Origin: a virus
Taxonomy: Duplodnaviria > Caudoviricetes
Reading direction: 5' to 3' (one strand)
DNA: 64,000 nt
IMG/VR virus record: IMGVR_UViG_3300021400_000244
Coordinates: 1-64,000 of that record
Positions 2-32,365 of the stretch are shown here, one piece after another. A model generated the notes under the pieces. The model was not told the DNA's origin. It worked only from the letters and a program-made list of their open reading frames with translations, and searched no databases. The translations under genes were made by a program, and so were the position numbers. Position 1 is the first letter of the stretch. The number at the start of each line of letters is the position of its first letter.

Positions 2-2731
2 AAGATTAATAAAGAAGATTATTATATATCAATAAATTCATATAATAATGATATTTATTATATAAATAACAATAAAGAAATAAAAAATATTGAAGATATA
101 TATCAGTATGATAAAGAAACTCAAAGTTATATTTCTGTAAACAAAGATAAAAAATTAGAAATAATAGAAAATGCTAATAATTATTACGTTAGTATTGAAA
201 AATCTGAAAATGAAAAAATAGCTGAGCAATATAGGTATATATCTGAAAATGATTTTTTAAATAATATTTATTATATAAATGAAAATGATGAAAATAATTA
301 TATAAATATTGATAATTTTAATAATATTTATTATAAAAAATTAGATATAGATGGAAATATTATTTATATAAATAAAGATTATATAGATTTAAATCAAGAA
401 CCTTTTATAATATTGACTCATGAAGAAAATAAATATGAACAAAAAATTCAGCATTATTTTAGAAATATGTTTGATGATACAACTTTATATTTTAAGATTA
501 ATTATAATCAAAGAACTTATTATGTTACGCAATTTAATCTCATAACAAAAGAAAGACAAAATAGAGAAGAAGAATGAGAAATACAAAATATAAAATCTTT
601 TTATGCAATTCAGCCAGATCATAATTATTGATATAATGAATATTATAACAAAGATTGAGAAAATGACATTACAGCTTATTTTATAGAATTTTCTTTTATT
701 GAAGAAGGGCAGTGATTACCTACTACAATAGAATTTGAAATCTCTGCTGTAAATAATGTTGATTTTAATAAAGATGCAAACTTTGATAGTATTAGTATTT
801 TGAATATTTATAAAAAATATAATGGAGATATTAAAGAAGGAATGTATCCTTATATTTTAAAAGAAGAAATTGATATGGCTAATCTTTATTATTATTATAG
901 TGATGATGATACTAGAATTTATTCTAATTTAAATAATGAAAATAATAAAACGTACTATAAATTAAAAGATTTAGATAGCTATATTGAAATATTAGAGGGA
1001 AATAAATTATTTTATTTTAATGAAGAATTTTTAACTTATATTCCTTTAGATCAAACAGAAATAGAAGGAGATTTTAGAAAAATAACTGTTCCAAAAACTT
1101 TTTCTGATTATAAATGAATAAATTTAAGTGTTTGAGGTATTAATATTCCAAACGGAGAAGGATGCTTGGGAAAAAAAGTAAATTCAAATAATTATGAATT
1201 TATTTCTAAAAAAAATATTACTGATAAATCTGAATATATAAAAGAAAATAATAAATATCTTTCTGTTAATGATTTTAAGTATATTTTTATAAGAGGTAGG
1301 GATATATTAGGAACTACATCCTTTTTTGTTTCAGTAAATACAATTATAACTGCTAAAAATGATGAAAATAACTATTGATTATTAGAAGATAATAAATTTT
1401 ATAATATTAACGATAAAGTAGTACGAACAACAGAAGAGTCATCTAACGCTTATTTAAATAAAACTTATTCATTATATGCAGGTAAATATATTAGCGAAAT
1501 TGAAAAAAGTAATGCTTTCACAGGAATAGGTATAGATGATATAATACAAATAAACAATACCAGAGCATTTGATTTTCTTTCTAATAAAAGTTTTAATGTT
1601 ACGGTTACTAATGCAAAAAATGAAGAAATAAAAACAGGAACAAGAGCAAGTAAAACAGGAGAAATTTTCTTATATAATAATAAATCTAATAGTGGATATC
1701 GAAATACTAATCAAGGGGATAGTTCTTATAGTGGAATTTTAGGTAAATTTACACATTATAATACAAGTAAAGAAATGGGTTTAATATTAAATACTGATTC
1801 AGTTCGTTTAATTGGTGACGATTCTACAAAAATTGAAAGTACAAAAAAAATTGAAATAGCTGCTTTAGAATTAGGTCCTGCTAAAAATAGTTATAGTATT
1901 TCAAATCCTCAAATTAGATTAATCGCAGGACAAAATAAAAGTAATGATAATAATGTATGTGCAGAATTAATATTAAATTCTTCATCTAATAGTTGAGGAT
2001 TAAGTGCAACCAATCCAGGATCAAGATCTGCAAATCCTATTTTTAGAGTAAAAGGAAGATATGGTAGTGGTATTGGAATTATTCCAGAAATACTTAATAA
2101 AACATATAAAGAATATTTTGAAGTAAATATGGATCAAGCAATTTCTAATGGATTAAGCATTCAAGGATTATACGCTGACAATGTAACAAAAGAAGAAGAT
2201 GAAAAGAATAAATCAGGTATTGGATTATATGTTACAAAAAATATTAAAGCTAGAAAATTTATAGGCAAAGATTGAAATAGTATTTTTACTTTTACTCCTC
2301 CTAATAATAAGAACCAAAAAGTATTTGGAAGTAGTACAACTATTTCTGGAGTAGGTGGTTCTGGATCTTTTAATGTTCCAATTATTACAATAAAAACAGA
2401 AGGACAACCTGGCATTACGACTGGAACTGTAAGTATTAGTATACCAAAAGCTCAAGATATTTTTGATGCTATAGAAGATTTATTAGATAAAAAATATTTA
2501 ACTAAGACAGATGCAGCTAGCACTTATTTAACTAAGACAAGTGCAGCTAGCACTTATTTAACTAAGACAAGTGCAGCTAGCACTTATGCAGTTAAAGGCC
2601 ATACTCATAGTGGATATGCTTCTAGCGATCACAGACATACTATAAGTGCTAATGCGCTTAGAGGTACAGCTACAGTGGGAGATAAAAAAGGTTCTGCATC
2701 GGTTCCAAGCAGTAAAGTTACTATATCGTAA
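2..2731 (+). CDS. Large virion structural/tail protein, 5'-truncated by the window edge (TGA=Trp)
   Basis: ORF fragments at 800, 1166 and 1775 share one frame and are separated by TGA. The frame closes at TAA 2729-2731. Product inferred from tail-module context. Confidence 0.7.
2495..2587 (+). repeat. Coding 30-bp tandem repeat x3 (YLTKT[DS]AAST)
   Basis: tatttaactaagaca(ga/ag)tgcagctagcact occurs three times in frame. Confidence 0.9.
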
Positions 2732-2747
2732 AAGGAGTTAAAAGGAT

Positions 2748-2981
2748 ATGAATAATTTACAATTACGTTTAGAATTACAAGTATCACTTCAGAGATGAAT
2801 TGATAATACAATGTCTAATTATAACATTTCAGCAGCAGAAATGGAAGATGCTTTATCACGAATATTGATAAAAATAAAAGATAAAGTCTATGAAGATTAC
2901 TTGAATGAACAACAACGGGCTTATCAAGAAATGATCAATGCATCTTCTAACCAAGAGAATGGAGAAATAGAAGATGTCTAA
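2748..2981 (+). CDS. Hypothetical protein, 77 aa (1 TGA=Trp)
   Basis: AAGGA upstream of ATG 2748; MNNLQLRLELQVSLQRWIDN...; TAA overlaps the next gene start. Confidence 0.7.
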
Positions 2982-3234
2982 TATTATTTCAAAAATTAAA
3001 GCAACAAAAGTAACAGAGCAAGATACATATAAACCAGAAATTATAGATATTGGTGTAAATAGTGATAATGTCGCGATTTTAGATTCAAATAATAAATTTT
3101 CATTAACTCAATTATATAATTATCTTAAAAGTTTTTTTAATAGTCAAATTTTTTCTTGATATGGAGAAAATATTCCTGATAGTATTAGAAATAACCTTAT
3201 TGATTTTTATCAAATAGAAGAACGAAATAATTAA
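2974..3234 (+). CDS. Hypothetical protein, 86 aa (1 TGA=Trp)
   Basis: Track ORF 2974-3159 continues through TGA to TAA 3232-3234, just before the next RBS. Confidence 0.7.
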
Positions 3235-3250
3235 AAGAAAGGAGGATAAA

Positions 3251-6771: not shown

Positions 6772-9480
6772 ATGCGCAAAATTTATCCTTATCTTGAAGA
6801 ATCTTATTATCCTAATTTAAATGAAGAATATGAAAAACAACAATTCTTATATTCTTTAAATAAAATTACAAATCAAAAACAATATGTAAAAATAACTTTA
6901 TTAGATTGAGAAGAAGATCCCATCAAAGAAATTGATGGGATCATTTCTTCTGGTAGTATTAATAAAGACGGTAATAGTACTGTTCGTCGTTCTTGTAGTT
7001 TAGCTTGTTCTGTTGATGGCGGAGTCTATAATATAGATAATATTGAAATGGATTTTTCTCTCAATAAAAAAGTATTTATTGAAATTGGTATAAAAAATGT
7101 AACAGATAAATATCCTGAATATCCTATTTTATGATTTCCGCAAGGAGTTTTTTATATAGATGCATTTAGTGTAAATTCTTCTACTTCTTCCGCAGTTAAT
7201 CTCAATTTATCTTTAAAAGATAAAATGTGTTTATTAAATGGAGATATTGCGGGACAGCTTCCTTCAACTGTTCAATTTGATACTATGACTACACAATTGG
7301 CAGATGGATCTGTTGTAGAACAAAAAGTATTGTATTACAATATAATAACTGAACTATTAAATCATTGAGGTGGAGAAGATCTTAGTAACATAATTATTCA
7401 AGATGTTCCATTAAGAATTCGTAAAATCGTACAGTGATGAGGTGAAAATCCTATATATTTAAAACAAGGTGGTTTTGATGTTTTAGATACGGATGATGTT
7501 GATACAAATTCTTATAATATGTCAATAGAAGAGCCGCAAGATAAAGAAAATTGATTTGAATATTCTAAAGGTGATGATATAGGATACGTTTATAGTGATT
7601 TTGTTCCAACAGAAGAATTAGTAGGAGCTGCGGGAAGTACTATTTGTTCTGTTTTAGATACAATAAAGAATCAATTAGGTAATTATGAATATTTTTATGA
7701 CATATTTGGTATTTTTCATTTTAGAGAAATAAAAAATTACTTAAATGAAACACAAGCTAGTACCATTTTACAGGAATCTAGTAATACGGGTAGACACGTA
7801 AATCTAAATGAGGGTCAATTTTTATTAGATACGGGATCTGAAACACAGTATTTAATAGAGACTATTGTTCCTAAAACTATTTATAATTTTGATTCAAATG
7901 AAAATTTAACATCTATTAGTGTAACACCTAATTATGCTAATATTAAAAACGATTTTATTATAGATGGTATTAAACAAAATTTTCAATCTGGATCAGAATA
8001 TTCTTTAAGATATAGATGTGTCATAGATGAAAAACCAGAAATTTTAGGTGAAAATAATGGTAAACCTTATTATGGCGCTTTTGATAATTTAATTTACTAT
8101 ACTTATCCAGAAGAATATGATGGAACAGTAATTGCAGAAACAAATAAATTAGGATGTTTTCATGAATTTTGAGCAGGAACAAAAGAAGAACCTTATTTAG
8201 TTTTACCAAATGTTGGAGTAATGGATCAAATCTATAGACTTGAAGAAAATGGTATATCTACCTTTTGAAGATGAGATGGCTCATCTTTTCAATCAGTTTA
8301 TTTAAATTTAGATGAAGATGAATTAGAAGAATATAATATACAATTTTATGCAATTTCTTCTGTTAAAAAGTTATTATCTTTATATAAAAATTTTAAATTT
8401 GAACAAGAAGAATTACAAGAAAAATATAAAGATAATCAGCGAGAATATCTTAGAAATTTAGGTATTTTAGAAAATGATTTTTTAGAAAAAATACAACATG
8501 AAATTGGTAATTTGTCTGAACGAGTAAGTGATTGAATTGAAAATAAAAATATTGATTGATATAATAATAGTGTAGATAATATAATTACAAAATTAAGAAA
8601 TATTTTAATTGAAAATAAAATTGATCCAGAAGGATTAGACGATGAAGAAGATTTTTCTCTTATTACAACAAGAGAACCTATTCTATATAGCTCTTCATTA
8701 AAGGATCCACAAACTAAAGAATTACTTGGATTTTATTATGCGTACGATTGACGTACAGCTTTATTAATTTATGGATTACAAGCTAACATACATGGAACTG
8801 ATCCAGGACCTTATTTTAGTGATTTAGAGTATTTTTGACCAGAAGAATATGATCTCCGCAGAGAAAATCAGTGTTTTTATGGAGAAAAGGAAAATAATTC
8901 TGTTTATTATAAATCATTAACGTCTGGAAAATTTTATTTTGATATGATAGACGCTAATACTTCTTCTCTTGGACAATTTAGTGTTCAAAACATAGGTCGT
9001 AGAATTAATGTAACAACTGACGATGAAGTTAATTGTTTATTTACGCCAGAAATTCCAAATCTTGTTTTTTTAAATATGGATAATCCAAAAATGAATTGAT
9101 CTGATAATACTACAATTACAGAATTAAGAACTGTAACTGATATAACAGAAATGCTTAATCAACAACGACAAGAATGTATAGATAATGGTCAACCATATAT
9201 TCAAGTTTCAGATGAAATATATGACAATTTATCTATAGGAGGGTATTTAAATGATGCATATTCTGCATTAAGATATGAATTATTTTTACATACTTCTTAT
9301 CAAAAAGTTGCTTCTATAACTGCATTACCTGTTTTTTATTTAGAGCCAAATAGTCGAGTTGCATTAAGTGATCCAACAACTAATACATATGGTGATTTTA
9401 TGATACAAAATATTAGTTTAACTCTTGGACCAGGTGCTAATCTATCAGCTACATTAAATGAAGCTTTAGAAAGGTTGTAA
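6772..9480 (+). CDS. Putative baseplate hub-like protein (DUF5048-like), ~902 aa (TGA=Trp)
   Basis: AAGGAGG RBS; ATG 6772 in frame with track ORF 9151-9480; N-terminal VKITLLDWEEDPIKEIDGIISSGSINKDGNSTVRRSCSL and C-terminal ITALPVFYLEPNSRV...GDFMIQNISL resemble hub-type tail proteins. Confidence 0.65.
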
Positions 9481-9492
9481 GGAGGTGCATAA

Positions 9493-10452
9493 ATGGCAAC
9501 TACTTATGGTATGGGGCAATATCGTATAAAACAAGGTGAAAATTATATAACTTTACTCGGAGAATCTATTTCATCAGAACATAAAGTAATAACAAAAAAT
9601 GGGTATAATTATCAAGATATATATTTTAATTTAAATAATATTGATGAGGGTAATGGAATACGATATGGTGAAACTTATTTTTTAGAATTAACTTTACCTC
9701 GTCATGTTCAGTATGATACAAATATTAATATAAAAATTTGTGGATCAAATGGAACAGGTGAAATAGATACAGAAAATCAATTTCAAAATATAAAACAAAT
9801 TATTGTTCCAAATTCTTCAGCTAATTCTGGTATTAATTATTATCAAGATGTTCTTTTGTATGAACGTGAAATTAATAATAATAAAGAAATTAATGTTGGA
9901 ATTATTACTACACAAAATAGTGATAATACAATAGGACATATATATTATAATGGAGGAAAATATTTTTTAATTGATAACGAAGGAAGAATAGAATTGTCTT
10001 CTTATCAACCTTCAAAAATTTTAAAGTCTTGAAATATACAAAATGAGACAGAAACTACAATAACTTATAAAATAGTGTTTTCTCCTAAATTTGACAATGT
10101 TACTTATAAATACTTATATTTAGAAATAGATAGAAGTAAAAATGTTGATATAGAATATATAGGTAATGATAATAATACTTATAAAGGAATTTATATTGAA
10201 AATGCTAATTTAAATATTTATAAAGTCACTAATATTTTATCAAGTGGATACATTGGTCATAATTCTTTAAATCATATAGGAGTTTGAGGTCATCCAGAAA
10301 TGTATTTAGCTATTAATGGAGAACAAATTCAAATTGGTAAAACTGGTTTTTATGAATTAGATAATTTTAATATTACAAGTTTAGGAGTTATTGTTAAAGA
10401 TTCAAATATAGATAGATTTAGTATTGATTATGAATTTGAATCTCAAAGTTAA
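9493..10452 (+). CDS. Hypothetical structural protein, 319 aa (TGA=Trp)
   Basis: AAGGAGG RBS; fragments 9493 and 10075 in frame; TAA at 10450-10452. Confidence 0.7.
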
Positions 10453-10470
10453 AGAAAGGGGAAAAATATT

Positions 10471-12216
10471 ATGGCTTTAGAAAGTTTTTATGGTGGAAAG
10501 CCTGGCTATTCCCCTATTATTAAAGGTTCTTTTAAAAATATTGAGGCTATGAATACTGCTTTTGCAAATCCAGAATATACAGATATTTGATATGGAGAAC
10601 TTTGCATTATTGCTTCTAATAGTATGTATGATGCAAATAATGGTAAAATTTTTAGACGTACTTTAAAAAAGCAAAATAGTTCTTCTTCTCAAAATTATTC
10701 TCTATATGCAGAATATTTAGGTCAAATAGTTGGTATGCCAGGTGGATTACCAAAAGTTGAATTTAATACAATTGATAATATTGATGCATTGGCTCAAACA
10801 GCTTTAACAGACGGAAAGGATATTTGATATCCTACGGGAATAGAAAAAGGATATGTACATACGGTAAAAACCAATGCTAATGATAGTGAAAATCCGTATT
10901 CTAAACCTAATCCTTTAAATGGTACACAGGCTATTGAATTAGTTCCAGGTGTAGTTAAGAATAATTTAGGTGAAATTATTGATTACAATGATAATTTTGA
11001 ATATACCTGATTACAAATGGCTGATCCGCAATCTAATACAGCTGAATCAGATGGTACTAGAGGAACTCTTGAAATAGGATTAAAAATTCCTTATTTATAT
11101 TTTGATGAACCTGAAATTGTTAATACTCCTTATTATGAAAATTCTACTATAGAAGAATCATTAACAGCTCCTGATAATCAAGTACATCCTTTTTATAAAA
11201 AATATAATTTTAAAATTGCAAATGGTGTTAATGGTATTGGAATAAAAAATTTAAGAATAATAGAAACTAATAAAATAAAAGAAAATGCTAATGACGATGA
11301 TTCAACAAAAATTGCTATTGTAGATTCTAATAACAATGAATTTTATTATGACAATAGTACTGGTGGAATTAAAATAAAAGGATTAGAAAGTGAAAATGTA
11401 GTATATAGATATAAAAATTCTTTTACTTGTGATAAAATTTGAGTTTATGACTTAATTTTACCAAGTAAAAATGATAAACAAAATAATCAATGAAAAGAAC
11501 CTGAATCTTATATTTGTTATGCAGGAGATTATATTGAATATACAGATGTTTCTTTAAATAATAATGGTACTTTAACTTTTAATAAAAACAATGGATCTAA
11601 TATAACTACTACAAATAATATGAAGTGAATTACTTCTACAAATGTAGAATTAAATCCTACAAATAATGATTACGGAAAATTTACTATTAATTATAATACA
11701 GAGCATCCAGATATAATTAATCTACCTTTAGTAAAACAAATAATTGCTTCTAATAATCCAACAAATAATAAAAATGGAGAAGTAATAAATGTTGAATTAA
11801 CTAATGGAGATGAAAGTTCAAGATCATTAACCTTACAAAAATCTATATTAAATGAACAAAATCAAATAACTTATGAAGATTATGTTTTAAAATATCCTAA
11901 AACTCTTGCAATTAGATCATGAAATGGAAATTCTGAAAGAGAAAATGAAAATTTTCTTTATCTAGATGCAACTTATAATGATAATACTACAGAAACAATA
12001 GGTTCAGTAGGAGTGTCTACTGTTACAAAACTTGGATCATACGTTGGTATTGGTAAAGAAGTAACAGAAAATGATGAAACTATAATAGAAAAAGATGATA
12101 ATTATTTACCTGAATTTCTCCAAGATGGTAACAGTAACATTTTTTTAATTCACGAAGAATTAAGTATTAATGAAAATAATTTTAACAATGTTTTTCCTTC
12201 TTTTGGAACTTCTTAA
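10471..12216 (+). CDS. Hypothetical structural protein, 581 aa (TGA=Trp)
   Basis: ATG 10471 (MALESFYGGKPG); fragments 10624, 11017 and 12013 share the frame. Confidence 0.7.
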
Positions 12217-12561: not shown

Positions 12562-13101
12562 ATGGTAAAAAAATTAACACGTAATTTTAGAAATCCAAAT
12601 TATGTACAAGATAGTAATGTTGATATTGAACGAAATGAATTTATTCCTCTTTGAACTTTTGATGGCTCAATAATTAATTTAGACAATAATGTTAAAATAA
12701 AAAAAGAGAATTTAGAAGGAATAACTGATTTATCTGATATAGTTAATAGTAATAGTCAAACTTGATGAGATCAAGTATCAAGTCAAAAAAACGGATATGT
12801 ACCAGCTTTTGGTATAAATACAATAAATCGTCTTTTATCAGTAAACGGGGATGGACAAGTAAGTTGAATTAATCCTACATATTCAACTCACACTCATACT
12901 ATAAGTGTACAGCAAAAAACGCCAAATGTAATAAAAGATAATGATATAAATTTATCAGATGATCAAAAAAAGTTTAAATATATTTTATATCCAAGAGCAA
13001 ATACTACTAATGATTATGTTTTAAATTTAGATAGATTTCTTTGTGAAGTATCTATTTCATTAAATATTAACAAGAATTCAACTCCTTTACTTGGTTCATA
13101 A
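12562..13101 (+). CDS. Hypothetical protein, 179 aa (4 TGA=Trp)
   Basis: AAGGAGG RBS; translated by hand through TGA codons, including TGA-TGA, to TAA. Confidence 0.7.
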
Positions 13102-16670: not shown

Positions 16671-18044
16671 ATGGCTGTTATATACTCTTCAGAAGTTACT
16701 CTTACTGACTTATCTGATGCTGCGAATGTGTCATTAAGTGGTTATGCATATACATTTCCAGCAACTTATCATGCAACAAATCCTGCCGCAAAAGGAGGAA
16801 CCTGTTCCTTTTCAGTAGATACTAGAATTGGAGCAACTCAAGTAGATTGTTCTGTAAATCCAGAAAATATTATTCTTCCTAGTGCGGGAGTTAGTGTTTC
16901 TGTTGCAAAAGCAACAGGTTCTTTTACCCCCGTTGTTACTGTTACAGTTACAAATAGTTTAACACAATCTGTTTTAAATACTCGTTCAACTATAACCGTA
17001 CCAGTTCAATTTACTTATCAAGGAGAAACTGTAACTATTTCTAAAGACTTTTCTTTAGCATTATCTCCAGATGGTCAAAATGGTGCGGCTGGTTATAATT
17101 ATTTTACAAATGCTGATGTTGAAGCTATTGTACGCTCAGAAGAGGGAGAGCTTAGTTCTACTGCAATTACTGTTTCAACTACTCGTGGTCAAACAGGAAA
17201 TCCATCAGCTTATCCAGCTTATTATTGGTCACACTATACTACAGACGGTTCAACTTGAACTCAAATAAGTAAGTCAACTTCGGCAACTGCATCTGTTACT
17301 GTTACTATTCCAAGTAGTGTATATAGTACTGTTAAAGCAATTAGAGTTACTGCTCATACAGGTTCACCAACAGATGCTAATAAAGTTGATACAATAACTA
17401 TCCCTATAATAGATAGTGGAGCTACAGGTCCGCAAGGAGAACCCGCATATACTGTTATTCTTACAAATGAATCACATACTTTTGCGGCAACTAAAGATCC
17501 GCACGCTTTAGCTAGTAGTATAGAGACTAGTGTTATTGCATATAAAGGTGGAACTAGAGTTAATGCTACTATTGGAACTGTTACTGGTACTGTTACTGGA
17601 TTAACAGCTACAATAAAATCAAATACAAATGATACAAATAATCCAACTTTAACAATTGCAGCTACCACAAGTTTAGTTACTCAACAAGGAGTTCTTACTA
17701 TTCCTGTAACAGTTGACGGTAAAACTTTTACAAAACAATTCTCATGAAGTTTATCACCTACTGGATCAGATGGAGCACAAGGACCAAAAGGTGACGATGG
17801 ATTATCAATGTCTATCACAAGTAATAATGGTACTACTTTTAGAAATAATTCTGGAAGTACAACTCTTACCGCACATATTTGGCAATCAGGAGCAGAAATT
17901 ACTGGCACAGCTCTTTCTACTTTAGGAACTATCAAATGATATAAAGATGGTGGTAGTACAGCTGTTGGTACTGGTTCTACTATTACAATTAGCGCCTCTG
18001 ATGTAGCTTCTAAGGCGGTGTACGCAGCAAAATTGGAGGGATAA
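16671..18044 (+). CDS. Tail-associated protein with Ig-like beta-rich domains and short collagen-like linkers, 457 aa (TGA=Trp)
   Basis: GGAG RBS and ATG 16671; GATGPQGE and GSDGAQGPKGDDG; YTVILTNESHTF; TAA 18042-18044. Confidence 0.7.
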
Positions 18045-18046: not shown

Positions 18047-21000
18047 ATGGCAATAAAATGTTCAGCGGAAACTACTGTTACAAATCAAATAGATGCAACA
18101 GATTTAATAATGTGGTATTATGCCACAACTTTAACAACAAAACCATTATCTCCATCTACTACTAGTGCTAGTGCCACTCCTACAGGATGATCTTTAATTG
18201 AACCTACTATAGCATCCGCGTCAGATTTATCAAAATATATATATGAATGTTTACAAATAGTTTGAGGAGACGGTACATGTTCTTGAGGAGATGTTCAATT
18301 ATCTGCGTCTTTTGAAGCTGCAAAACAAGCTTATAATCTTGCACATAGTACCGCTTCTATTTTTACCACTTTTGAACAAACTCATAATAAAACTTTAGTA
18401 GATACTGTAAATGAAAGTTCTTCTGCTATAACAACTTTAACAGAAAGCCATCAATATGGTGGAATTAATTTATTATCTAATACAAAATCAATAGATTCTT
18501 CATCTGCTCCTTATACTAATTCTAATATTAGTCTTTATTCAAATCAGGCTCCAATAGATGGTGAATCTTTTTATTATTGTTCAGGCCCAAAATATTTTCA
18601 AATTGATTTTCCTACATTAATTAATAACCAAAAATACACTTTATCATTTGATATAAGTAGATCTTCTGATTCACGACCTGTTTTTGTAAAAATAGATGAA
18701 ACTGAAACTAATGTAGGGACTGCCGCGGCAACAACTTGAACAAGACTTTCTTATACTTTTACTGCAAGTGCATCTACTACAAATGCTCAAATTAGAGTAG
18801 CTTTTGATTCAACAAGTTCGACAGCTACTTACATTGCGGCAATTAGACATATTAAATTGGAACAAGGTTCTTTAGCTACGCCTTGAGAATATTCTAGTAA
18901 TGATATATCTACATTATCAAATACTGTTAATACTGTTTCTCAGACTGCAGATTCTAATAGTTCTACAATTTCTAATTTAACTCAGACTCTTGGAACAAAT
19001 GCTAATGGAACTACTAAAACAGATGATATTGTACATCAAGTATCTGATATTAGTCAAGATTTAAATGGTATTACTACAAGGGTTGGTAAAACTGAAATTG
19101 CATTAAAAGGTAACTATGCTGTAAGTTCTACTGCTAAAGGAACAGCAAATAAACAGGCTACAATTTCTCCAGCTCTTACTAATTATGAATTGGTTCAAGG
19201 AGCCGCAATTACTGTTAAATTTACAACAGAAAATACTGCGGCAAACCCAACTTTAAATATTAACTCTACTGGAGCTAAACCTATTAAAACCTATTCTGGT
19301 GCAGCTCTTAGTGAGAATGAATATAAATGAGATGCTGGTTCAACTATGACTTTTGTTTACGATGGTACTAATTGATGTATTCAAGATAGCACAGAGTTAA
19401 CAAGAATTAAAAATAATGAAACACTTATTAATCAAACAGCAAATAATGTATTAATAAAAGCTACAGAGTCAGATACTACAGCAGCACAAGGTGGTCAGCA
19501 TCTTATTCAATCTCTTATTAATGTTGCTCCAAATGGAATAAAAATTAGTGCAGATAAAGTAGATATTGAAGGTGCCGCGATTTTTTCTGAAAATGGTTAT
19601 TTATCTCAAGATAATATTAATGCAATAAATAATGAATCTCAAACAATATATATTCAAGCAGTAAGTGGAACTTCTTCGGTTTCAGGAACTACTACTTGAG
19701 TAACAAATACAGGAGAGTCTGTTACTCAAGATGCGGCAAATCTTACTCCTGTATGAACAATAAAGCGTCCTATTTATAGAACAAATTATCCAGTATTATT
19801 TGTTGCAACTCAATATAAGACAGTAGATGGTACAGTTACTTGTACAACTCCATTAAAAGATGATACTATTACAGTTATTGATGCGGGACATATCACAACT
19901 GGAACTATTGATGCTTCAAATATTACTGTAACAAATTTAAATGCGGACAATATTACAACTGGTACAATTAATGGACAACGAATTGGCGTTGGATCATTGA
20001 GTCTTGATAAACTCGCAGAAGATGTTTATACTGAGACAGAAGTAAATAATATAGTTGATAACTTACAAACCCAAATTGATGGAGCTATTGAAACTTGAAC
20101 TGGAACCAATATACCAACTCTAAATAATACTCCCGCAAGTGCTTGAACTACAGATTCTATAAAAGATACTCATGTTGGAGACGTATATTTTGTAGTAAAT
20201 GATCAATCACAACAAAATGGTTATAATTATCGTTTTACTAAAACTACTTCAAATGGAACTTCCACATATAGTTGACAATTAATTAAAGATAATGATGTAA
20301 CTAATGCTCTTCAAAGATTAACTACTGCTGAAGGTAAAATTGGTACTATTGAAACATTTGATTCTACCGTATCAAGTTATATGACTAATACCGACAACGA
20401 ACTTTCTTCCATTAAGACCGCCGCAACCACACTTGAAGGTCGTGTTGATACAGCAGAGGGAACTCTCGCAACAAAGGTTGACACTACGACATTTAATACA
20501 CTTAGCCAGACTGTTGAGGGAAATAGTAGTTCGATTCAACAATTGACTACTGAGACTACCACGTTAACTGAGAAAGTTACGCTTGATGCTCCATATACTC
20601 AAGTGGAGTGGGTGGAGTTTACTGGCAAGAACATTTGTCGCTTGGATTATCGACCGGGTGTTAATGGTGCATTTGGGTTTGAGATTGACTTTATAACTTA
20701 CAATTCTTTTACCAGCACTTCATATCCGTCCATTTCCGACGCTAGAGCTACGAACGAAGGTAAAGCAGGAGTTATATTTGGCGTTCGAGGAGATGGGTCT
20801 AGCGTTGCGGCCAACTACGGACCTAAGTACAAGTACTATGCATTACAGACATATGCTTCGTCTGGATTTCTTTATGACGGTGGTCACCGCACTGTGGCAA
20901 AGATGTATACAGATAAGCGTCGTCAGCAATGCTCACTTAGAAATGGTATTTATACTGCTCCTGATGGTTCTACAGTTGATGTTGGCATACCGGCATATCA

Positions 21001-24000
21001 GCCACCTGATGATTTTATGTATGTGTCTGGATTGCATACGGCCGGTGGAACAAAGAATTCTAAGTTCGAAGCACCATCTGTAACACGTATATATTCATTA
21101 AAATTCTATAATGATGATGTTTTAGCTGTAAATCTTATTCCAGCTATTCGCAAGTCTGATAGTACGACCGGTTTGTACGATTCTGTTAGCGGAATATTCT
21201 ATCCTTCGCACGGAATGCTTTTCGGTGATGAGGTAGGTGACCTTGGAGATTCTCCAGATTTATTGAATCAGTTGGCTATAGCCAATCCAGCATTGAGCGA
21301 TCTTCGAACAGAAAACACCAGACTCATAACCGTTGAGAGTAATGATATTAAGAAACTTCAGGATGGTCAGCGTGTTAGCGTTTTGTTGAAGTATGCTACT
21401 GCTAGCGAAACTGCTGAAGCAGCTAATATTACAAACCCTGCGCTAAATCCAGCTGCCGGTAATGCAGTATTTCTTGCACTACGTGATCTTGATGGTAATC
21501 TTGTTGGTGGATATGAAAATCCAGTTTATTATAATTCAACAACTTTGCTAACAACTCATTACGCCGTTGGTATGATACTTCAATTGCAGTTCAGAATGAA
21601 TGTTGTAATCGGAACAACATTAATAGCTCGAGGTTGGTTCTGCGATTCGGATTACAATACCAATACTAATGATACAGCTAGATACGTCCAATGGTACAAC
21701 AACATCTTTGCTAAGAAAGCTCTTCGTAACTCAAGCATTATCGTTGGTGACGAGGATGGTTACGAGGAAATTGGAATAGATGTAACTTTTGATCTTGCAT
21801 ATCCAATATTATGGAGAACTGCGGCTCTTGCTATAAATAAGACCGATTATGCATATTCATGGACTATGTATGTCGACAGAACGTTAGCTACTTGCTATCC
21901 TGATGTTTCTGGCGTTAAGAATCAAATGTTATATTTAGTTGGCGAGCCAAATGCCGGAAAATTCACCATAAAGTCGCCGATGTTAACATTTGACACTCCG
22001 ACTGAGCCGGATGGGTTGTATTATATTCCAATCGGCAAACTTGGAAATCAGTCTAATGGACAAAACTACTTATTCTTCTCGACAGCTCCTAATCCAACAA
22101 TGTTTGCATTTATTGGAGATGCATTCCAGCAAGTGCAAGGAATTGTTGTAAAAACCACTGCAAAACTTAATGAGACCATTGATACCGTAGATGAGCATAC
22201 TCGTAGAATTGGCTCTCTCGAAACTACAGTCGAAACTAAAGCAGATGGCTCTGATGTTACAACCATTAGTAACAGGCTCAACACTGTTTCTGATACAGTT
22301 GATAGCCATACTCAGTCTATCACTTCGTTGAATAACACGGTAGCTACAAAGGCTGACGGTTCTGAAGTTACGACTTTGAGTAACAACTTGTCGAGTCTTC
22401 AGCAGGATGTTAATACATACAAGACTACTGTTGCTAGTACGTATGCTACAAAAACGGCCTTATCTGATGCTCAAACTAGTCTGCAAGAGGCTATTGATGA
22501 CAAAGCAGCATCTTCCGATCTTACAGCATTATCTTCTCGCGTTTCTACAGCCGAATCCACCATCGAACAGCATAGTAATAGTATAGCTCTAAAGGCTAAT
22601 TCATCTGATGTCTATACCAAGACACAGACGGACGGCCTAATCTCCACAGAGGTCACCAACCGCAACGCGGCAATCACCGCGAAAGCCAACGAGATTACTT
22701 CCACCGTATCACAGACCTACACCACCAAGGAGGAGTTCAACAATCTTGAGATAGGCGGAAGGAATCTGCTGCTTAGGACAAGTTCCGAAGCATCGATTGA
22801 CAAGTCGTACGACCAGATTTACGAGTTCTCATCGGTTGTGCATGATATGGAGTCTGGGACGCCAGTAGTCATGTCTTTTGACGCTAAGTCAACGCAAGCT
22901 CAGTGGATTGACCTATACCCTCGAAGTGCAAAGAGCGGAGGCACAGTTTATGCGAGGGCTAGCGAGGGATTGTATCCGTCTTTACACATCGTAGAACCTG
23001 ATACTTGGTATCATTGCGAGTACAAAGGAACTATAGGACCCAATGCCGCAAACTATGCGTGGCTAACTTTACGTTCAAATTCGACAGAGCATGGTTCTGC
23101 TGCAGCACTGGGTATCGTTTCGATTCGCAACATGAAGCTGGAACGAGGCAATCGCGCAACCGACTGGACTCCAGCACCCGAGGACATCGAGACGCGCGTA
23201 ACTACGGCAGAGACCAAGATTGAACAGACGGCGAACAATGTCCTCATCAAGGCCACGCAGAGCGACACCACCGCAGCACAAAGCGGCCAGCACCTCATTG
23301 AGTCCCTCATAAACGTGGCCCCAAGTGGAGTAAAGATTGCCGCTTCCAAGGTCGAGATAGACGGTACGGCGGTATTCAACGCCATCAGCGATGATGTGGA
23401 TGACGCCATCACCGGCAAGGGATACCAGACGGCGTCGCAGGTCAACAGCGCAATCACGTCCAAGGGCTACGCCACCACGACGCAGGCTCAGGGATATGCA
23501 AATACTGCTGAGCAGAATGCTAAAACTTATGCAGAAGGTCAGGCAGACGCTGTAAACAGCGCTCTTGAAACTTACAAGACTACTACCAATTCTACGCTGA
23601 CTAGTCTTCAGAATCAGGTTGATGGTCAGATAGAAGCGTGGTATAAGACCGTTGACCCAACGTTGTCTAACGAACCTGCTTCTACATGGAACACAGATGC
23701 TCTTAAAGCTCGACATGAGGGTGATATTTACTACAACGTCGAGAGTGGTCATTCGTGGCGTTGGATGAAGTCTGGATCTACATATTCTTGGCAGCAGATT
23801 CCGGATAGTGATGCAGCAGCAGCCCTTGCAGTGGCTCAAAATGCACAGTCTTTAGCGAACTCTAAGCGACGGATATTTACTTCAACACCTACTGTTCCGT
23901 ATGATGTTGGTGATTTGTGGGTCGATGGAACTAGCATCAAGTATGCCAATGCGTCTAAGACAGATAGTCAGACATATTCTGAAAGTGATTGGGCTGTTAC

Positions 24001-26668
24001 GGCTACTGATGATACTCTCGCTCAAACTGCTTTAGATGCCGCTGGAGTAGTGCAAGATAATTTAAATGCTGCACGAATCTGGTATGCGGAATCAACGACT
24101 CCCGCAGGAACTGTAGCAAAAGTTGCCACAATAACGCCAGAAACAACAGCATTTGAGCTAACTGTCGGAACGATTGTGAATGTAAAGTTTTCTGCGACCA
24201 ATAGCGGTGCAGTTGGCAGCATAACGTTAAACGTTAATGAAACTGGTGCGAAGCATATCAAGTCCATAAACAAGGGTGTCGTAGGCAATCTTCCAGGAGC
24301 AGGATATATCACAGCGAATACTGTATATCAGTTTATATATGACGGATCATATTGGGTAGCGCAAAGCATCCATCCTGATGCAAACACCACATACAATCTT
24401 GGCAGTAACAATTATTATAAAGCCATTATAGCAAAAGCTGCAATAACGGCAGAGCATATAATTGTTGGCGATTCTTCGGGATATTCGATGGTTGCTGCCG
24501 GAACAACATTCGATTTGTCGTACCCGATACTTTGGTGTACAGCGGCTGTTAAACTCAACGCTTCAAACTATGCAAATCTTTATCTAACGGTTCAGGAACG
24601 AACGATACTTAATTCCGCTCCAAACTTGACTAAGGTTTTGGGTTCTACAGTGTGGCTTACTGGCACCATTTCTGGGGATATATTCACTGTGTCTTCTGAC
24701 ATTGCTACATGTGAAGCTCCTACCACTGAAGATGGACTTATATACATACCAATAGGTTGTATATCGAGCACCGGGCTTAGCACAAAAGACTTCATGTTTG
24801 TATCTTCAAAGGAACTGTGGGCATATGTAGATGGCGCTTTCCGACAAGTTGACACCTCCACGGTTCTCGCTACTCATCGTATTTATTATCGTACGGCCAC
24901 AGCAAATTCGTCTCTTGCGGCTCCTACAACGTGGGTTGAAGAAGCTACTGGGAATGTCTACAATCAGTGGACAACTAAGGTACCTCCTCTGGCAGTGTCA
25001 ACCGCTTCTGGACAAACCAAGTATTTATATTTGTATACTTGCGAGCAGCGGAAGCGACTTGACGGCACGACTGTTTGCACAAAGGTGTTGCTGGATGAGA
25101 ATACGACTGTTATTGATGGTGGGAACATCATCACAGGAAGCGTTACTGCGAACAAACTTAACGCAGCCGACATCAATGCCAGTAAGAGTCTGACTGTTGG
25201 GGCAATGACCGACGATGCCGCGTCGACCATCTTAAACAGCAATTTGAGCAATGATATTTCTAACGCTACCAAAACAGCCACGAACTATATCACCGCCGAC
25301 TCCACCGGCATCAGGATAGCCAATACCAACCCGACCACCGCCACCACCTACCAGCACCAGACCGCCACCGAGACCGAGTTCGTGGTGGAGGGGAAGTCCA
25401 TGGGCTCATTCTCAGGAACCTCAGTGCGAATCGGGTCTGAGAGCGATACCCATGTCGAAATCGAGGCAACGGAATCTAATGGAGGACACATAGTCCTGTC
25501 AAACCCGGATGATGCCAGTAATGGAATCAGTCTCAAGATGACCCCCACGACTGCCAATGGCGGGATGTTTAAGAGTCACGTATATTCTCTCGAATTCGGC
25601 TCAGACATCCCCTCCAGAGGGAAAATTTATTCAAGCTATTACACGTCAAACTCTGCCGGGTCGGAGTTGGTCGACAAGAACTGTTATATCGGAATGGCGG
25701 TCGGATCAGACGACTACGACGGCTACTCAGGGTTCGGACTTGATGTACGCAGGCAGGGGGAGGACGGCGAAACGAACAGTCTAAGTATGGTCGCCCATAC
25801 CTATGCCACCGAATACCAAAACTATACAGAGGAAGTGTCCAAGCTAAACCTCACTGCTTCGGCGGGCACGGAGTATTGCGACATTATGCTCAATTGCCTT
25901 ACCCGCGAAAACGGCTTTAAGCATGTAGGTCAAATTGCTGCGTCAGCAAACGAGTACCTGATACAAGACGGCCCCGTCTTTATAGAGGATGACAGCCTAT
26001 ATATCTTTGACGATGACGTTCCCTATGTCGATGCGAGATATACGAAGTCATCCAATACGTACGGTCGCGGCATATTTATGGGAAACTACGTACGGCCTGA
26101 AAGAGGGGATGTCGAACAGTCGAATATATCACGTACTGATATGATCGCTGGGGTGTTTCCATATGCCATGTCCAACGCTGACGTTGGAGTCACCCTGGAA
26201 GGGGCTCGAGTTGTTAACGGCACGCGGTACACCAACGCTCTACGCCTCGGAGTCAATGAATCTGGTGGCTATGTTGTGCGACTGCAACGGGCACCATGGC
26301 TTTCCGCACTAGGCCTTGGAGAGACGTCTCCGACAAACCTTTCTCTTAATAGCGCTACCAAAGCATACTCTTCTAGCTGGACTCCAAAGTATAGAAAATG
26401 GGGAAACGTCGTAGAGGTATACGGCGCGGTTTCGCCGAAAGCAGTTGTAGCCGCGGAAGGCACTCTTACTATTGCAACGCTTCCAACCGGATACAGACCT
26501 AGCAGTAACGTTTGTATCTTGTGTCAAGGTAGCGGAGTAAGTCAGTGGTTCCTTACAATTAATCCAAATGGCGTGATGGAAGCTGCAAGATATCGTTCCG
26601 GATCAACCTATGCTGCTATGCAAACTAATTCTTTTCTCGTATTTAACGCGACTTTCATTGTCGATTAG
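18047..26668 (+). CDS. Giant tail fibre/host-specificity protein, 2873 aa, chimeric (5' part TGA=Trp, 3' part TGG only)
   Basis: GGAGG RBS and ATG 18047 in frame with track ORF 20381-26668; coiled-coil segments; EIGGRNLL...KLERGNRATDWTPAPED module; C-terminal receptor-binding-like domain (YRKWGNVVEV...LPTGYRP). Confidence 0.8.
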
Positions 26669-26676: not shown

Positions 26677-27276
26677 ATGTCTTTAAAACGTTCTGTTCTT
26701 ATGCCTGATGGCACGATTCGTAATGTCCATACTATTACTCAGATTACCCATATCATTGGTGCTGAGACTCGTTTTGATATTCTTTCTACTCAAGAGGGGC
26801 TGATGGAATACTTTCAGACTTTCTCAGTCCCATACGATAGCAACATTGATGAGGATGCTGCTTATGATATTTTAGCTAACTCAGATGAGTTTGCTGAGTA
26901 TATCGATCCAGAAGCTGAAGCGCTAAACACCATTCTTCCCATTCTTACAGATGAGCAAGCAGGTCTCATTCCTTCGGTTTGGCCTATTTGAGCTGCTGAT
27001 ATTCAATATACCGCTGGAACTAGAGTCACTCACAATGGTGTTGTGTACAAATGCCTTCAGGACCATACTTCTCAGACTGATTGGGCGCCAAATCTTGCGC
27101 CCTCTCTCTGAGCAAAATGTCTTGTAGACAGTGACACTATTAGCGAATGGGAGCAGCCGGACAGCACGAATCCTTATATGAAGGGTGACAAGGTCACTCA
27201 TAATGGTTCGACTTGGATCTCAGATGTTGACAACAACGTCTGGGAGCCTGGGGTTTACGGTTGAAGTAATGTGTAA
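26677..27276 (+). CDS. Tail fibre accessory protein with carbohydrate-binding (CBM5/12-like) repeats, 199 aa (3 TGA=Trp)
   Basis: YTAGTRVTHNGVVYKCLQDHTSQTDWAPNLAPSLW and WEQPDSTNPYMKGDKVTHNGSTWISDVDNNVWEPGVYGW. Confidence 0.75.
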
Positions 27277-30187: not shown

Positions 30188-30205
30188 TTAAAGAAAGGAA
30201 CAAAT

Positions 30206-30514
30206 ATGTTTGATTTTGATCAAATTGCAACTTTAATTTCACCTATTATTGTTATAGCTTGTCTTACTCTTGGGTATATAATTAAACATACCTTTAAAAA
30301 TGAAAAAATTAATGCTTTTATTCCTTTTATTTGTGCTCTCACTGGAATTTTAGCAAATCTTTGAACTACTGGAATTGTAGATTTAGTATCTATTACAACT
30401 GGTGCAGTTAGTGGTTTAGCTGCAACTGGTTTGTATGAAGGTTTCACTAATATTTTAAATCTTCCTAAATTAGAAGATGAAATTATTACAATTCCTTATG
30501 GCGAATCTAAATAA
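30206..30514 (+). CDS. Holin, 102 aa (1 TGA=Trp)
   Basis: Three hydrophobic segments; IACLTLGYIIK...NAFIPFI...GAVSGLAATGLYE; lies upstream of the endolysin. Confidence 0.8.
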
Positions 30515-30823
30515 TTAAAAACAATAAGAGCAAAAGACTTTGTAAATTCAAATAATTTCTGTATTAATTTTTATGATTTTGGAATATTACATTTACATTC
30601 TTGTTCTTTTAATTGCGGAAATCACTATGCTGTTAATATGAATGGGCCTATATATTTAAAAGGTACATATCAAAACAAGGGTAAAGTTGCTGCTTTCCGC
30701 ATGGAAAGTCCTGCTCCAGTATATGGTGGAGATAGTATGAAATTAAAATCTTCAGATTTTAAATGAATATATCCAACTTCCCAAATTTGATTACCAACTG
30801 CATCTATTAAGAAGGGATAAAAT

Positions 30824-32365
30824 ATGAAAGAACCTGTTATTGACGTTTCACATTGGGATGGTACAGTAGACTACAATGCTTGAATTGAAAAATATAATCT
30901 ATGAGGAGTTATTGTTAAATGCGGCGGCAATGAAACTAAATTAGGTCGTTATACTGATCCTCAATATGAAAATAATTATAAACGTGCAAAGGCCGCAGGT
31001 CTTCATGTTGGTGCATATTATTATAGTGTTGCCACCGAAGTAGAAGAAGCTAAAAAAGATGCGGAACATATTATTGGGCTACTCAAAGGACATTCTTTTG
31101 ATTTACCAATTTATTTAGATGTAGAAGATCCTAGACAATTCCGTCTTTCAAAACGAGTTTTAACTGATATAATAAAAACTTTCTGTGAAGCTTTAATTAA
31201 AGCAGGTTATTATGCCGGTGTATACATTCAAGGTTCAGCTTGGCTTGGTAATGTGTATAAAGATGAACTAAGTGATTATGCAAATTGAATTGCATGATGG
31301 CGCTCATCTTGACCAACCGAAGCTGGTGACATTGGTATGTGACAACAAGGTATGAGACGCTTTAATACTGGAAAGTTTTATTATGACGAGACACCTGGAG
31401 CTACCGATTTTGACTGATGTGTAATTGATTATCCTTCCCGCATTAAAGCTAATCAAAAGAAACAACCTTCAGAGACTCCAAAAGAAGAAACTAAGGAGGA
31501 AACGGTGGCAGATAACAAACTTACAAAATTCTGTGATTTAATGTACACCGCATGTGCTGAGTGATCTCTTGGATATGATCAGTATCAACGTCAAAATATT
31601 TATGATGGCGGAGAATGTGATTGTAGTTCATTAGTAATTTGAGCTTTAAAGCAAGCTGGTTTTGATACTGGTTCTGCTTCTTACACTGGTAATATGTCCA
31701 GTAATCTTACAGCTCGCGGATGGAAGCGTATTACTGCAGATCTATCTCAAGCTAAGCCAGGAGATATTTTACTTAATGATACTTATCATACAGCTGCAGT
31801 AATTTCTGGTTCTGGTTGAAATGCTAAAATTGCACAAGCGTCTATTGACGAACGTGGTTGCGCTACAGGTGGAACTGCCGGAGATCAAACTGGTAATGAA
31901 ACCAATGTCCGCAATATTTATACCTATAGTCACGGTTGGAGCTGCATTCTTCGTTGGGGTGGAGGAAGTACCTCTGGAACCTCTGGATCCTCTAGTAATA
32001 CGTCTACTAAACTAACTGTGGATGGTGTGGGCGGTCCTGCTACAATTAGAGCATGACAGAAATCTTTAAAGACTGTCCAAGATGGAGTTATTTCTGGACA
32101 GCTTCGTGGTAATTGAAAATATTTCCCAGCTATTACTTCTGTAACTTGGGAACGTACTGGTTCTCAATTAGTTATAGCAATTCAGAAAAAGGTTGGCGCT
32201 GATCCTGATGGATATTGGGGTCCAGATACATCCCGCAAGATTCAACAATTCTTAATTAAGAATGGGTTTAGCGTAGGTCCTGAAGGAGCAGATAGTTACT
32301 TCGGTACTAATTCTGTGAAAGGACTACAGAAGTCTCTTAATAGCTCTAAGAATCCTTGGAAATAA
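30824..32365 (+). CDS. Endolysin: GH25 muramidase, NlpC/P60-like peptidase and peptidoglycan-binding repeats, 513 aa (~12 TGA=Trp)
   Basis: IDVSHWDG...GLHVGAYYYS...PIYLDVED (GH25); YDQ...DCSSLV...HTA (NlpC/P60); VDGVGGPATIRAWQ and DGYWGPDTSRKIQ. Confidence 0.88.

What the first reader, a model, noticed from the sequence alone, without database searches (positions are those of the whole stretch)
2..32365. UGA reassigned to Trp, with internal paralogue evidence
Seen: structural and lysis genes become contiguous only if TGA is a sense codon, and joined genes end in TAA or TAG. Tandem TGA-TGA occurs at about 5027, 7435 and 12763, which argues against leaky readthrough. A repeated tail module (QIExW...PTL...PAxxW...HxGD...W) occurs at about 15960-16200, 20070-20300 and 23615-23810. 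Its conserved Trp positions are TGA in the first two copies and TGG in the third. Established: stop-codon-recoded phages of standard-code hosts are known from gut metagenomes. Inference: the peptidoglycan-degrading lysin implies a walled host, not a code-4 mycoplasma.
Basis: partly seen in the sequence, partly recalled or inferred. Interest (0 to 1): 0.75.

Follow-up and report, generated by a model that had tools for sequence, protein, structure and literature searches.

The report
Phage reads stop codon UGA as tryptophan

Summary
The observation and its interpretation both hold. Window 1-32365 is 38.5% coding under the standard code and 93% with TGA as sense. A reversed-sequence null goes from 9% to 18%. 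All joined genes end in TAA or TAG, and the three tandem TGA-TGA sites and the three-copy tail module are exactly where stated.

TGA means Trp. In the endolysin, read with X at TGA, all 12 TGA columns have W as the commonest residue among 120 homologues; many close ones are themselves code-4 calls, but two standard-code homologues show W at 10 of the 12. Against a standard-code sister phage, 98 aligned TGA codons meet W 32 times, F/Y 20, G 2 and S 2. In genes 2-14377 there are 60 TGA and 1 TGG.

The record is a 125-kb IMG/VR phage, about 83% complete. It holds a tRNA(UCA) at 76722-76818, outside the window, and no release-factor or TrpRS gene. TGA makes up 70% of Trp codons in late genes and 28% in the replication block, where ligase and RecJ still need it.

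This is a new member of a known kind (Borges et al.). The tRNA carries an extra hairpin that copies the Trp CCA anticodon loop. This scan has already found that design in many other genomes; I found no paper on it.

The parts
2..2731 (+). 5'-open structural ORF (909 aa read with TGA=W); 9 TGA, 0 TGG; ends TAA
3251..6757 (+). 1168-aa structural ORF (phrog_30026); 21 TGA, 1 TGG; tandem TGA-TGA at 5027-5032
6772..9480 (+). 902-aa structural ORF (phrog_32343); 14 TGA, 0 TGG; tandem TGA-TGA at 7435-7440, where the first TGA aligns with W in standard-code relative G006
9493..12216 (+). two ORFs (9493-10452 and 10471-12216); 2 and 7 TGA, 0 TGG
12562..13101 (+). 179-aa ORF; 4 TGA; tandem TGA-TGA at 12763-12768
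14390..16654 (+). 754-aa tail fibre / tail tip-like protein; 6 TGA; holds copy 1 of the repeated module (TGA at 15983, 16031, 16154)
16647..18044 (+). 465-aa tail protein (phrog_38044, tail fibre families); 3 TGA, 2 TGG
18047..26668 (+). 2873-aa tail fibre. All 12 TGA lie before 20276 (module copy 2: 20096, 20144, 20273). From about 20600 the GC content rises to 40-53%, and that part has 0 TGA and nearly all of the gene's 28 TGG (module copy 3: TGG at 23639, 23687, 23789). The distal part is distantly like tail proteins of Bacillus and Mammaliicoccus phages.
26677..27276 (+). 199-aa protein with a CBM_5_12 carbohydrate-binding module; 3 TGA, 5 TGG
30206..30514 (+). holin (Phage_holin_5_2); 1 TGA
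30824..32365 (+). endolysin, GH25 lysozyme + ELLD/Amidase_5 + PG_binding_1; 12 TGA, 9 TGG; W is the commonest residue at all 12 TGA columns in homologues
44865..46655 (-). RecJ-like exonuclease with 3 in-frame TGA. A single alignment to the standard-code orthologue runs through all three, and the RecJ_OB domain is reached only by reading TGA.
55310..56431 (-). ATP-dependent DNA ligase with one TGA (codon 250, bases 55682-55684). The C-terminal OB domains lie beyond it, so TGA is sense in a replication gene as well.
43694..44641 (-). AT-rich (26% GC) HNH endonuclease gene inside the replication block; 8 TGA, 1 TGG
53845..54846 (-). AT-rich (28% GC) GIY-YIG endonuclease gene; 5 TGA, 0 TGG. Two of its TGA codons align with W in G006.
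35405..43397 (-). TGA-poor replication genes (NrdD 36837-38669, DNA pol III alpha 39876-43397), readable with the standard code and using TGG. One exception, the guanylate kinase at 38983-39567, has 3 TGA.

Best explanation
The window is the first 64 kb of a phage genome of about 150 kb. The phage is a large siphovirus-like virus whose portal relatives infect Bacillota, and it decodes UGA as tryptophan.

Shown here: TGA is a sense codon across the genome and stands at Trp positions. It has almost replaced TGG in the AT-rich late genes, where it makes up 70% of Trp codons in the tail, lysis and packaging module. It is rarer in GC-richer replication genes (28%), many of which have none. The genome encodes one tRNA with anticodon UCA. 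That tRNA has Trp-type features (A1-U72, G73) and lies in a stretch of TGA-free genes.

Inferred mechanism: early genes and the tRNA cluster are expressed with the host's standard code. Host TrpRS charges the tRNA(UCA) with Trp, and the charged tRNA competes with release factor 2. Only then can TGA-containing genes be made in full. These include the first gene of the late module (PHROG label 'sigma factor', 9 TGA), the holin, the lysin and the virion proteins. AT mutation pressure then drives TGG to TGA, as in mycoplasmas. GC-rich, TGA-free segments such as the distal tail fibre look like recent imports from standard-code sources.
For: Coding density.

TGA versus TGG counts and total Trp-like frequency: 1.43% of codons in late genes and 1.48% in the replication block.

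W at TGA columns.

TGA<->TGG exchange with a relative.

TGA read through in ligase and RecJ.

tRNA(UCA): at G000 76722-76818, 56.7 bits to Rfam tRNA, not an 8/5 Sec fold. The recoded relative G010 has a comparable 96-nt tRNA(UCA), while the standard-code relative G006 has none.

Gene GC against TGA share: Spearman -0.44, p = 1e-4.

GC step at about 20.6 kb coincides with the last TGA of the tail fibre gene.

Published precedent: Borges et al. preprint 10.1101/2021.08.26.457843. A phage TrpRS:tRNA(UCA) pair was shown to insert Trp at UGA in preprint 10.1101/2025.10.30.685624.
Against: No protein-level data exist for this phage.

The host is not identified. The closest cellular lysin homologues are in high-GC Atopobiaceae/Olsenella MAGs, whereas portal relatives infect Bacillota.

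Timing by suppressor supply is inferred, and some replication genes also need TGA, so the split is not a clean early/late one.

In replication genes only 3 of 16 aligned TGA codons meet W. Two guanylate-kinase TGA codons meet D and E in both relatives.

Charging of the tRNA with Trp is inferred from the proteins, not measured.

A few short ORFs have a single TGA 6-14 codons before their end, so occasional use of TGA as a stop cannot be excluded.
Confidence: 0.88

Rival explanations
1. TGA encodes glycine (code 25), as in phages of Absconditabacteria and Gracilibacteria.
For: ORF structure alone cannot separate code 25 from code 4. Borges et al. report some code-25 phages.
Against: Gly is not among the commonest residues in any of the 12 lysin TGA columns. 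It meets 2 of 98 TGA codons genome-wide, against 32 for W. Without TGA=W, genes 2-14377 would hold a single Trp. The tRNA(UCA) has Trp-type A1-U72 and G73.
Confidence: 0.01
2. The host itself uses code 4 (a mycoplasma-like or other UGA=Trp bacterium), and the phage simply follows its host.
For: The genome is AT-rich, and TGA occurs in some replication genes too. The host was not identified.
Against: The lysin is GH25 + amidase + PG_binding_1 and sits next to a holin, which implies a peptidoglycan wall. Portal relatives infect Enterococcus, Bacillus, Lactococcus and Clostridioides. Sister phage G006 uses the standard code, and cousin phAss-1 recodes TAG instead. Many replication genes avoid TGA altogether, and the phage carries its own tRNA(UCA).
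Confidence: 0.07
3. The in-frame TGAs are real stops: a decayed or mis-assembled phage, or leaky readthrough or selenocysteine at a few sites.
For: ARAGORN labels the tRNA 'SeC'. The genes appear fragmented under code 11.
Against: There are 150 in-frame TGA codons in late genes and 3 tandem pairs. TAA and TAG are never in frame. Homology continues across TGA, and W sits at those columns. Relatives G007, G010 and the contig behind L010 show the same pattern. The tRNA has a 7/5 acceptor/T structure and matches the general tRNA model.
Confidence: 0.01
4. The long-armed tRNA(UCA) is charged by SerRS, because it has a class II shape, G73 and a Ser-like D arm, so that TGA is Ser or a Ser/Trp mixture.
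For: The variable-arm stem is 7 bp long, the D stem has 3 bp, and G73 is present. SerRS ignores the anticodon (established knowledge).
Against: Ser meets 2 of 98 TGA codons. In lysin TGA columns it is at most a minor residue (7 of 92 at column 158, 10 at column 431). The TGA share rises where TGG disappears.
Confidence: 0.03

Closest known systems
TGA-to-Trp (code 4) recoded gut phages of standard-code hosts, e.g. the Agate and Jade clades of Borges et al. (bioRxiv 10.1101/2021.08.26.457843; later Nat Microbiol 2022, cited from my memory)
   Same: The genome is large, and its relatives come from animal-gut metagenomes. TGA accumulates in structural and lysis genes and is sparse in the replication machinery. 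A suppressor tRNA(UCA) is present. A close relative uses the standard code. TGA is rare or absent as a stop.
   Different: Clade membership was not tested, because no Agate or Jade sequences were at hand. No TrpRS/RF1 'code change operon' like that of the two Jade genomes was found. Several replication genes here also need TGA.
Phage phAss-1 / proposed Phassvirus (OQ749652.1; PMC10607447)
   Same: It is the second-best GenBank phage portal match (38% identity over 98% of the query), behind an unannotated 12-kb fragment, MT836163.1 (54%). Its genome is about 136 kb, it comes from the gut, it carries suppressor tRNAs, and its predicted host is in Bacillota.
   Different: phAss-1 recodes TAG, not TGA.
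Enterococcus phages EF1, EF5, VRE9 and large Bacillus siphoviruses (standard code)
   Same: Portal identity is 26-31% over 85-98% of the query, and genomes are 120-167 kb. These phages anchor the lineage on Gram-positive, standard-code hosts.
   Different: They have no stop-codon recoding.
Mycoplasma and Spiroplasma genetic code 4
   Same: UGA=Trp is read by a tRNA(UCA), and AT pressure drives TGG to TGA.
   Different: There the whole cell is recoded and RF2 is lost. Here the change is carried by a virus, is uneven across genes, and is presumably imposed on a cell that still has RF2.
AP1 and HF2 phage TrpRS:tRNA-Trp(UCA) pairs (bioRxiv 10.1101/2025.10.30.685624)
   Same: These are phage tRNA(UCA) genes shown by mass spectrometry to insert Trp at UGA. 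The AP1 tRNA has G73.
   Different: Those phages bring their own TrpRS, and none was found here. That preprint does not mention an extra CCA-loop arm.

Membership tests
Code-4 (TGA=Trp) recoded phage of a standard-code host | Genes are open only if TGA is sense, with a large gain in coding density | tested here: met
   0.385 to 0.932 for window 1-32365; null 0.09 to 0.18. Whole record 0.53 to 0.79.
Code-4 (TGA=Trp) recoded phage of a standard-code host | TGA positions align with Trp in homologues that use TGG | tested here: met
   Standard-code G006: W at 32 of 98 aligned TGA codons against a 1.1% background.
Code-4 (TGA=Trp) recoded phage of a standard-code host | Phage-encoded suppressor tRNA with anticodon UCA | tested here: met
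   G000 76722-76818, outside the window.
Code-4 (TGA=Trp) recoded phage of a standard-code host | Recoded codon enriched in late (structural and lysis) genes | tested here: met
   TGA share of Trp codons is 0.70 in late genes, 0.28 in the replication block and 0.20 in the 62.8-96 kb region. The split is not absolute: ligase and RecJ carry TGA.
Code-4 (TGA=Trp) recoded phage of a standard-code host | Host uses the standard code | tested here: inconclusive
   Indirect only: a wall-degrading lysin, relatives on Enterococcus and Bacillus, and a standard-code sister phage. No host genome was linked.
Code-4 (TGA=Trp) recoded phage of a standard-code host | Accessory code-change genes (RF1, TrpRS); optional, seen in two Jade genomes | tested here: not met
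   No PF00472 or PF00579 match in the 83%-complete record.
Agate clade of Borges et al. | Placement inside the clade on a terminase or whole-genome tree | not tested
   No Agate reference sequences were available. Only size, source and recoding pattern agree.
Code 25 (TGA=Gly) phages | Gly at TGA columns | tested here: not met
   G at 2 of 98 aligned TGA codons; not among the commonest residues in any of the 12 lysin columns.
Selenocysteine decoding | tRNA-Sec with an 8/5 acceptor/T structure, and few UGA sites | tested here: not met
   7/5 cloverleaf that matches RF00005 tRNA. About 250 in-frame TGA codons in the genome. SECIS elements and selA/selB were not searched for.

The most novel reading that the evidence does not exclude
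The phage's UGA decoder is a tRNA-Trp whose variable arm is a conserved copy of the ordinary Trp (CCA) anticodon hairpin. In this reading, that second hairpin is what lets host TrpRS, which reads the anticodon, still charge a tRNA whose working anticodon is UCA.

The same genome holds a tRNA-Ile(UAU) with an extra arm showing GAU. That would make this a general natural design for tRNAs given a new anticodon.

Shown here: the hairpin is conserved and its stem covaries. In 63 long tRNA(UCA) genes from viral contigs, 49 have a UCCA loop.

Not shown: any role in charging. The scan has seen both designs in many other genomes, and later checks of the 'handle' reading for the Ile design put it at only 13-42 in 100.
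Probability: 0.3. Interest if true: 0.8.

Novelty: new member of a known kind. Interest (0 to 1): 0.38.

Why it matters
The recoding itself is already described, so the main value is practical. The record must be annotated with table 4, otherwise its tail, lysis and packaging genes fall apart into fragments.

The genome is also a clear teaching case, for three reasons:
- TGA has almost wholly replaced TGG in the 24%-GC genes but not in GC-richer modules.
- A sister phage still uses the standard code, and a cousin recodes TAG instead.
- Imported, TGA-free segments can be told apart inside a single tail-fibre gene.

The unusual tRNA(UCA), together with the tRNA-Ile(UAU) beside it, is the part that could lead to new biology. 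It may show how a virus gets a host synthetase to charge a tRNA with a changed anticodon.

Tried and rejected
- An Rfam scan of the lysin locus found nothing and was a wasted call, since it covered the wrong locus for the tRNA.
- blastn of the tRNA(UCA) against E. coli genomes gave no match.
- A 17-nt anticodon-arm pattern in viral contigs gave three matches with no tRNA call at them and no wider similarity, so probably chance.
- A D-arm pattern gave no match.
- The search for related loci with the 597-aa protein near the tRNA cluster found no relatives.
- blastn of the tRNA against relatives found only generic T-arm matches. The relative's tRNA(UCA) was found with ARAGORN instead.
- The listing of cluster members gave no useful names.
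- Close lysin homologues turned out to be code-4 gene calls themselves. They are therefore not independent evidence for W, and I relied on standard-code homologues and on codon-level comparison.
- A search for TGA used as a stop found only ambiguous cases or antisense shadow ORFs.
- Reading TAG as sense as well adds a small gain that the standard-code phage also shows, so it is non-specific.
- Pfam and Rfam found nothing in the GC-rich 96-108.6 kb region.
- Literature searches found no description of a CCA-loop extra arm.
Full report
**What the window is.** The window is bases 1-64000 of a 125,498-bp linear IMG/VR virus record that CheckV rates 83% complete. The + strand from 2 to 32365 holds tail, tail-fibre, holin and endolysin genes. 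This module continues from the far end of the record, 109-125.5 kb. That stretch holds a PHROG-labelled sigma factor, the large terminase subunit, the portal and the head genes. The - strand from 32.4 to 62.7 kb holds replication genes: RuvC, dUTPase-like, guanylate kinase, NrdD, DNA pol III alpha, RecJ, DnaB, ligase and gyrase A/B.

**Checking the observation.**
- Under code 11 the + strand module is shattered. With TGA as sense it becomes a tight array of long genes, all ending in TAA or TAG.
- Greedy ORF cover of 1-32365 rises from 0.385 to 0.932. Reading TAG or TAA as sense gives 0.43 and 0.60. The reversed sequence gives 0.09 and 0.18, so base composition does not explain the gain.
- Tandem TGA-TGA lies at 5027, 7435 and 12763, as stated.
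- The three copies of the tail module align. In three columns copies 1 and 2 have TGA and copy 3 has TGG.

**Which residue TGA encodes.**
- In genes 2-14377 there are 60 TGA and one TGG. If TGA were not Trp, about 5,000 residues of virion protein would hold a single Trp.
- With TGA=W, late genes have 1.43% Trp-like codons, the same as the replication block at 1.48%.
- I translated the endolysin with X at TGA, so the query could not bias the alignment, and aligned 120 database homologues. W is the commonest residue at all 12 TGA columns and an outright majority at 11.
- The close homologues proved to be code-4 gene calls from related phages, so they are not independent. Two standard-code homologues are independent. 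The Atopobiaceae MAG protein in NCBI nr has W at all 7 TGA columns of the GH25 domain. P0104, which translates by table 11, has W at 3 of 5.
- At codon level against the relative behind L010, TGA and TGG exchange 9 times and TGA meets TAT once.

**Comparison with related phages.** The portal led to related IMG/VR records. I fetched three of them whole.
- G006 (139 kb) uses the standard code: cover is 0.80 under code 11, and it has no tRNA(UCA).
- G007 and G010 are TGA-recoded.
- Against G006, 98 aligned TGA codons of this phage meet W 32 times, F 11, Y 9, L 6, C 5, G 2 and S 2, with a background W frequency of 1.1%. The phage's TGG codons show the same W > Y/F spectrum.
- In late genes alone, 68 aligned TGA codons meet W 26 times and F/Y 17 times.
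- Code 25 (Gly), Ser and simple termination are therefore excluded.

**How far the recoding reaches.**
- TGA makes up 70% of Trp codons in the late module (150 TGA, 65 TGG). It is 28% in the replication block and 20% in the 62.8-96 kb region.
- Many replication genes have no TGA (NrdD, pol III alpha from its ATG, DnaB, gyrase A/B).
- The split is not clean. The ligase needs one TGA to reach its OB domains, and RecJ needs three. Single alignments to the standard-code orthologues run straight through these codons.
- The TGA share falls as gene GC content rises (Spearman -0.44).
- The AT-rich HNH and GIY-YIG endonuclease genes inside the replication block are TGA-rich.
- Inside the 2873-aa tail-fibre gene, the last TGA is at 20273. 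GC content jumps from about 33% to 40-53% at about 20.6 kb. The distal part, which holds the TGG copy of the module, looks like an import from a standard-code source. Its only GenBank phage matches are distant tail proteins of Bacillus and Mammaliicoccus phages.
- I found no gene whose homology requires TGA as a stop. A few short ORFs remain ambiguous.

**Decoding machinery.**
- The record has 14 ARAGORN tRNAs. One, at 76722-76818 (outside the window), has anticodon UCA.
- ARAGORN calls it SeC, but it has a 7/5 cloverleaf with A1-U72 and G73. It matches the general tRNA model at 56.7 bits.
- It lies among TGA-free genes.
- No release-factor (PF00472) or TrpRS/TyrRS-class (PF00579) gene was found. 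About 17% of the genome is missing, so this absence is not conclusive.

**The extra arm of the tRNA.**
- The tRNA is 97 nt long because it has a 7-bp extra arm in the variable position, with loop CGUCCAAAA.
- The 96-nt tRNA(UCA) of G010 has an extra arm with loop CUCCAAA. This is the anticodon loop of ordinary tRNA-Trp(CCA) genes from the same set of phage contigs.
- A pattern search that put no condition on the extra arm found 88 unique matches to the GGUCUUCAAAACC anticodon-arm pattern in viral contigs. Sixty-eight have a long arm, and 33 of those contain UCCAAA.
- Over both searches, 63 of 80 unique ARAGORN tRNA(UCA) genes are long, and 49 show a hairpin with UCCA in its loop.
- On an alignment of 46 sequences, all 5 pairs of the extra-arm stem change on both sides and 86% of cells pair, on a par with the canonical helices. 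The anticodon loop and G73 are invariant, and UCCA in the extra loop is invariant or nearly so.
- I noticed this before looking at earlier notes. The scan has already reported the same design in at least 35 other genomes.
- The same genome's tRNA-Ile(UAU) at 76023-76113 has an extra arm whose loop, CAGAUAA, shows GAU, though its stem is only 3 bp. That design was also reported before in at least 85 genomes. Later checks priced the 'synthetase handle' reading at 13-42 in 100.
- I found no paper that describes either design.

**Host.**
- The lysin is GH25 + ELLD/Amidase_5 + PG_binding_1 and lies 0.3 kb downstream of a holin gene. This implies a peptidoglycan wall.
- Apart from an unannotated 12-kb fragment (MT836163.1, 54%), GenBank portal matches are phAss-1 (38%, a TAG-recoded gut phage assigned to Clostridia), then Enterococcus, Bacillus, Lactococcus and Clostridioides phages.
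- The nearest cellular lysin homologues are in ruminant-gut Atopobiaceae and Olsenella MAGs. Two 'MAG' contigs at 70-73% identity (55 and 105 kb long) may be mis-binned phage contigs; I did not check this.
- A standard-code Gram-positive host is likely but not shown.

**Verdict.** The phenomenon matches what Borges et al. described for TGA-recoded gut phages: TGA in structural and lysis genes, a suppressor tRNA, and close standard-code relatives. A phage tRNA(UCA) has since been shown to insert Trp at UGA. This is a new member of a known kind, and I score its interest as moderate to low. The open and more novel lead is the two-hairpin tRNA. It lies outside the window, and the scan has already flagged it on other DNA.

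Noticed in passing
G000 76722-76818 (+), outside the window (= L002:1223-1319): The tRNA(UCA) has an extra 7-bp arm with loop CGUCCAAAA, a copy of the Trp CCA anticodon loop. Forty-nine of 63 long tRNA(UCA) genes from viral contigs share a UCCA-loop hairpin with a covarying stem. The scan has already seen this design in at least 35 other genomes.
   Followed up: yes
G000 76023-76113 (+) (= L002:524-614): A 91-nt tRNA-Ile(UAU) has an extra arm whose loop, CAGAUAA, shows GAU, the ordinary Ile anticodon. Its stem is only 3 bp. It lies about 0.6 kb upstream of the tRNA(UCA) in the same tRNA cluster. The scan has reported this design before in many genomes.
   Followed up: partly
window 20600-27200: A GC-rich island (40-53% GC against 24-35% around it) covers the distal two thirds of the 2873-aa tail-fibre gene and the CBM_5_12 gene. 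The tail-fibre part has no TGA. It probably represents a recently imported host-recognition module.
   Followed up: partly
window 43694-44641 (-) and 53845-54846 (-): AT-rich, TGA-rich HNH and GIY-YIG endonuclease genes sit between GC-richer, mostly TGA-free replication genes. They look like homing endonucleases native to the recoded gene pool.
   Followed up: partly
window 50009-50191 (-): Two tandem class II tRNA-Ser genes lie inside the replication block, with anticodons GCU and AGA. The second has A34 (loop CUAGAAA) and U at the discriminator position, both unusual for bacterial tRNA-Ser.
   Followed up: no
G000 109045-110154 (+) (= L003:1045-2154): The first gene of the late module matches PHROG 5767 ('sigma factor', E = 2e-38) but has no Pfam hit. 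It has 9 TGA and 0 TGG. If it is a late sigma factor, its synthesis would itself depend on the suppressor tRNA.
   Followed up: partly
G000 69532-70998 (+), 76840-76956 (+) and 66961-67896 (+): A TROVE (Ro60-like) protein, a weak YrlA/Y-RNA-like match (33.9 bits, below the gathering score) just after the tRNA(UCA), and an RNA ligase together suggest an RNA repair or quality-control module.
   Followed up: no
G000 79234-79313 (+) (= L002:3735-3814): An 80-nt element scores 64 bits against Rfam tmRNA (gathering score 47). It has only the tRNA-like ends (GGGGAUA...UAUCUCCACCA, G3-U70) and no message part. ARAGORN does not call it.
   Followed up: no
G000 96000-108600: A 12-kb stretch of 45-57% GC has only short, poor ORFs and no Pfam or Rfam match. 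It is unexplained. It could be foreign DNA, non-coding DNA or an assembly join.
   Followed up: partly
G007 (IMGVR_UViG_3300031992_000032) 32477-32552: This TGA-recoded relative (cover 0.57 to 0.81) carries a tRNA(CUA) amber suppressor but no detectable tRNA(UCA) in its 86%-complete record.
   Followed up: no
window 38983-39567 (-): The guanylate kinase gene has 3 TGA codons. They align with A/V, D and E in both relatives, not with aromatic residues. In replication genes overall, TGA sits mostly at non-conserved positions (W at 3 of 16).
   Followed up: partly
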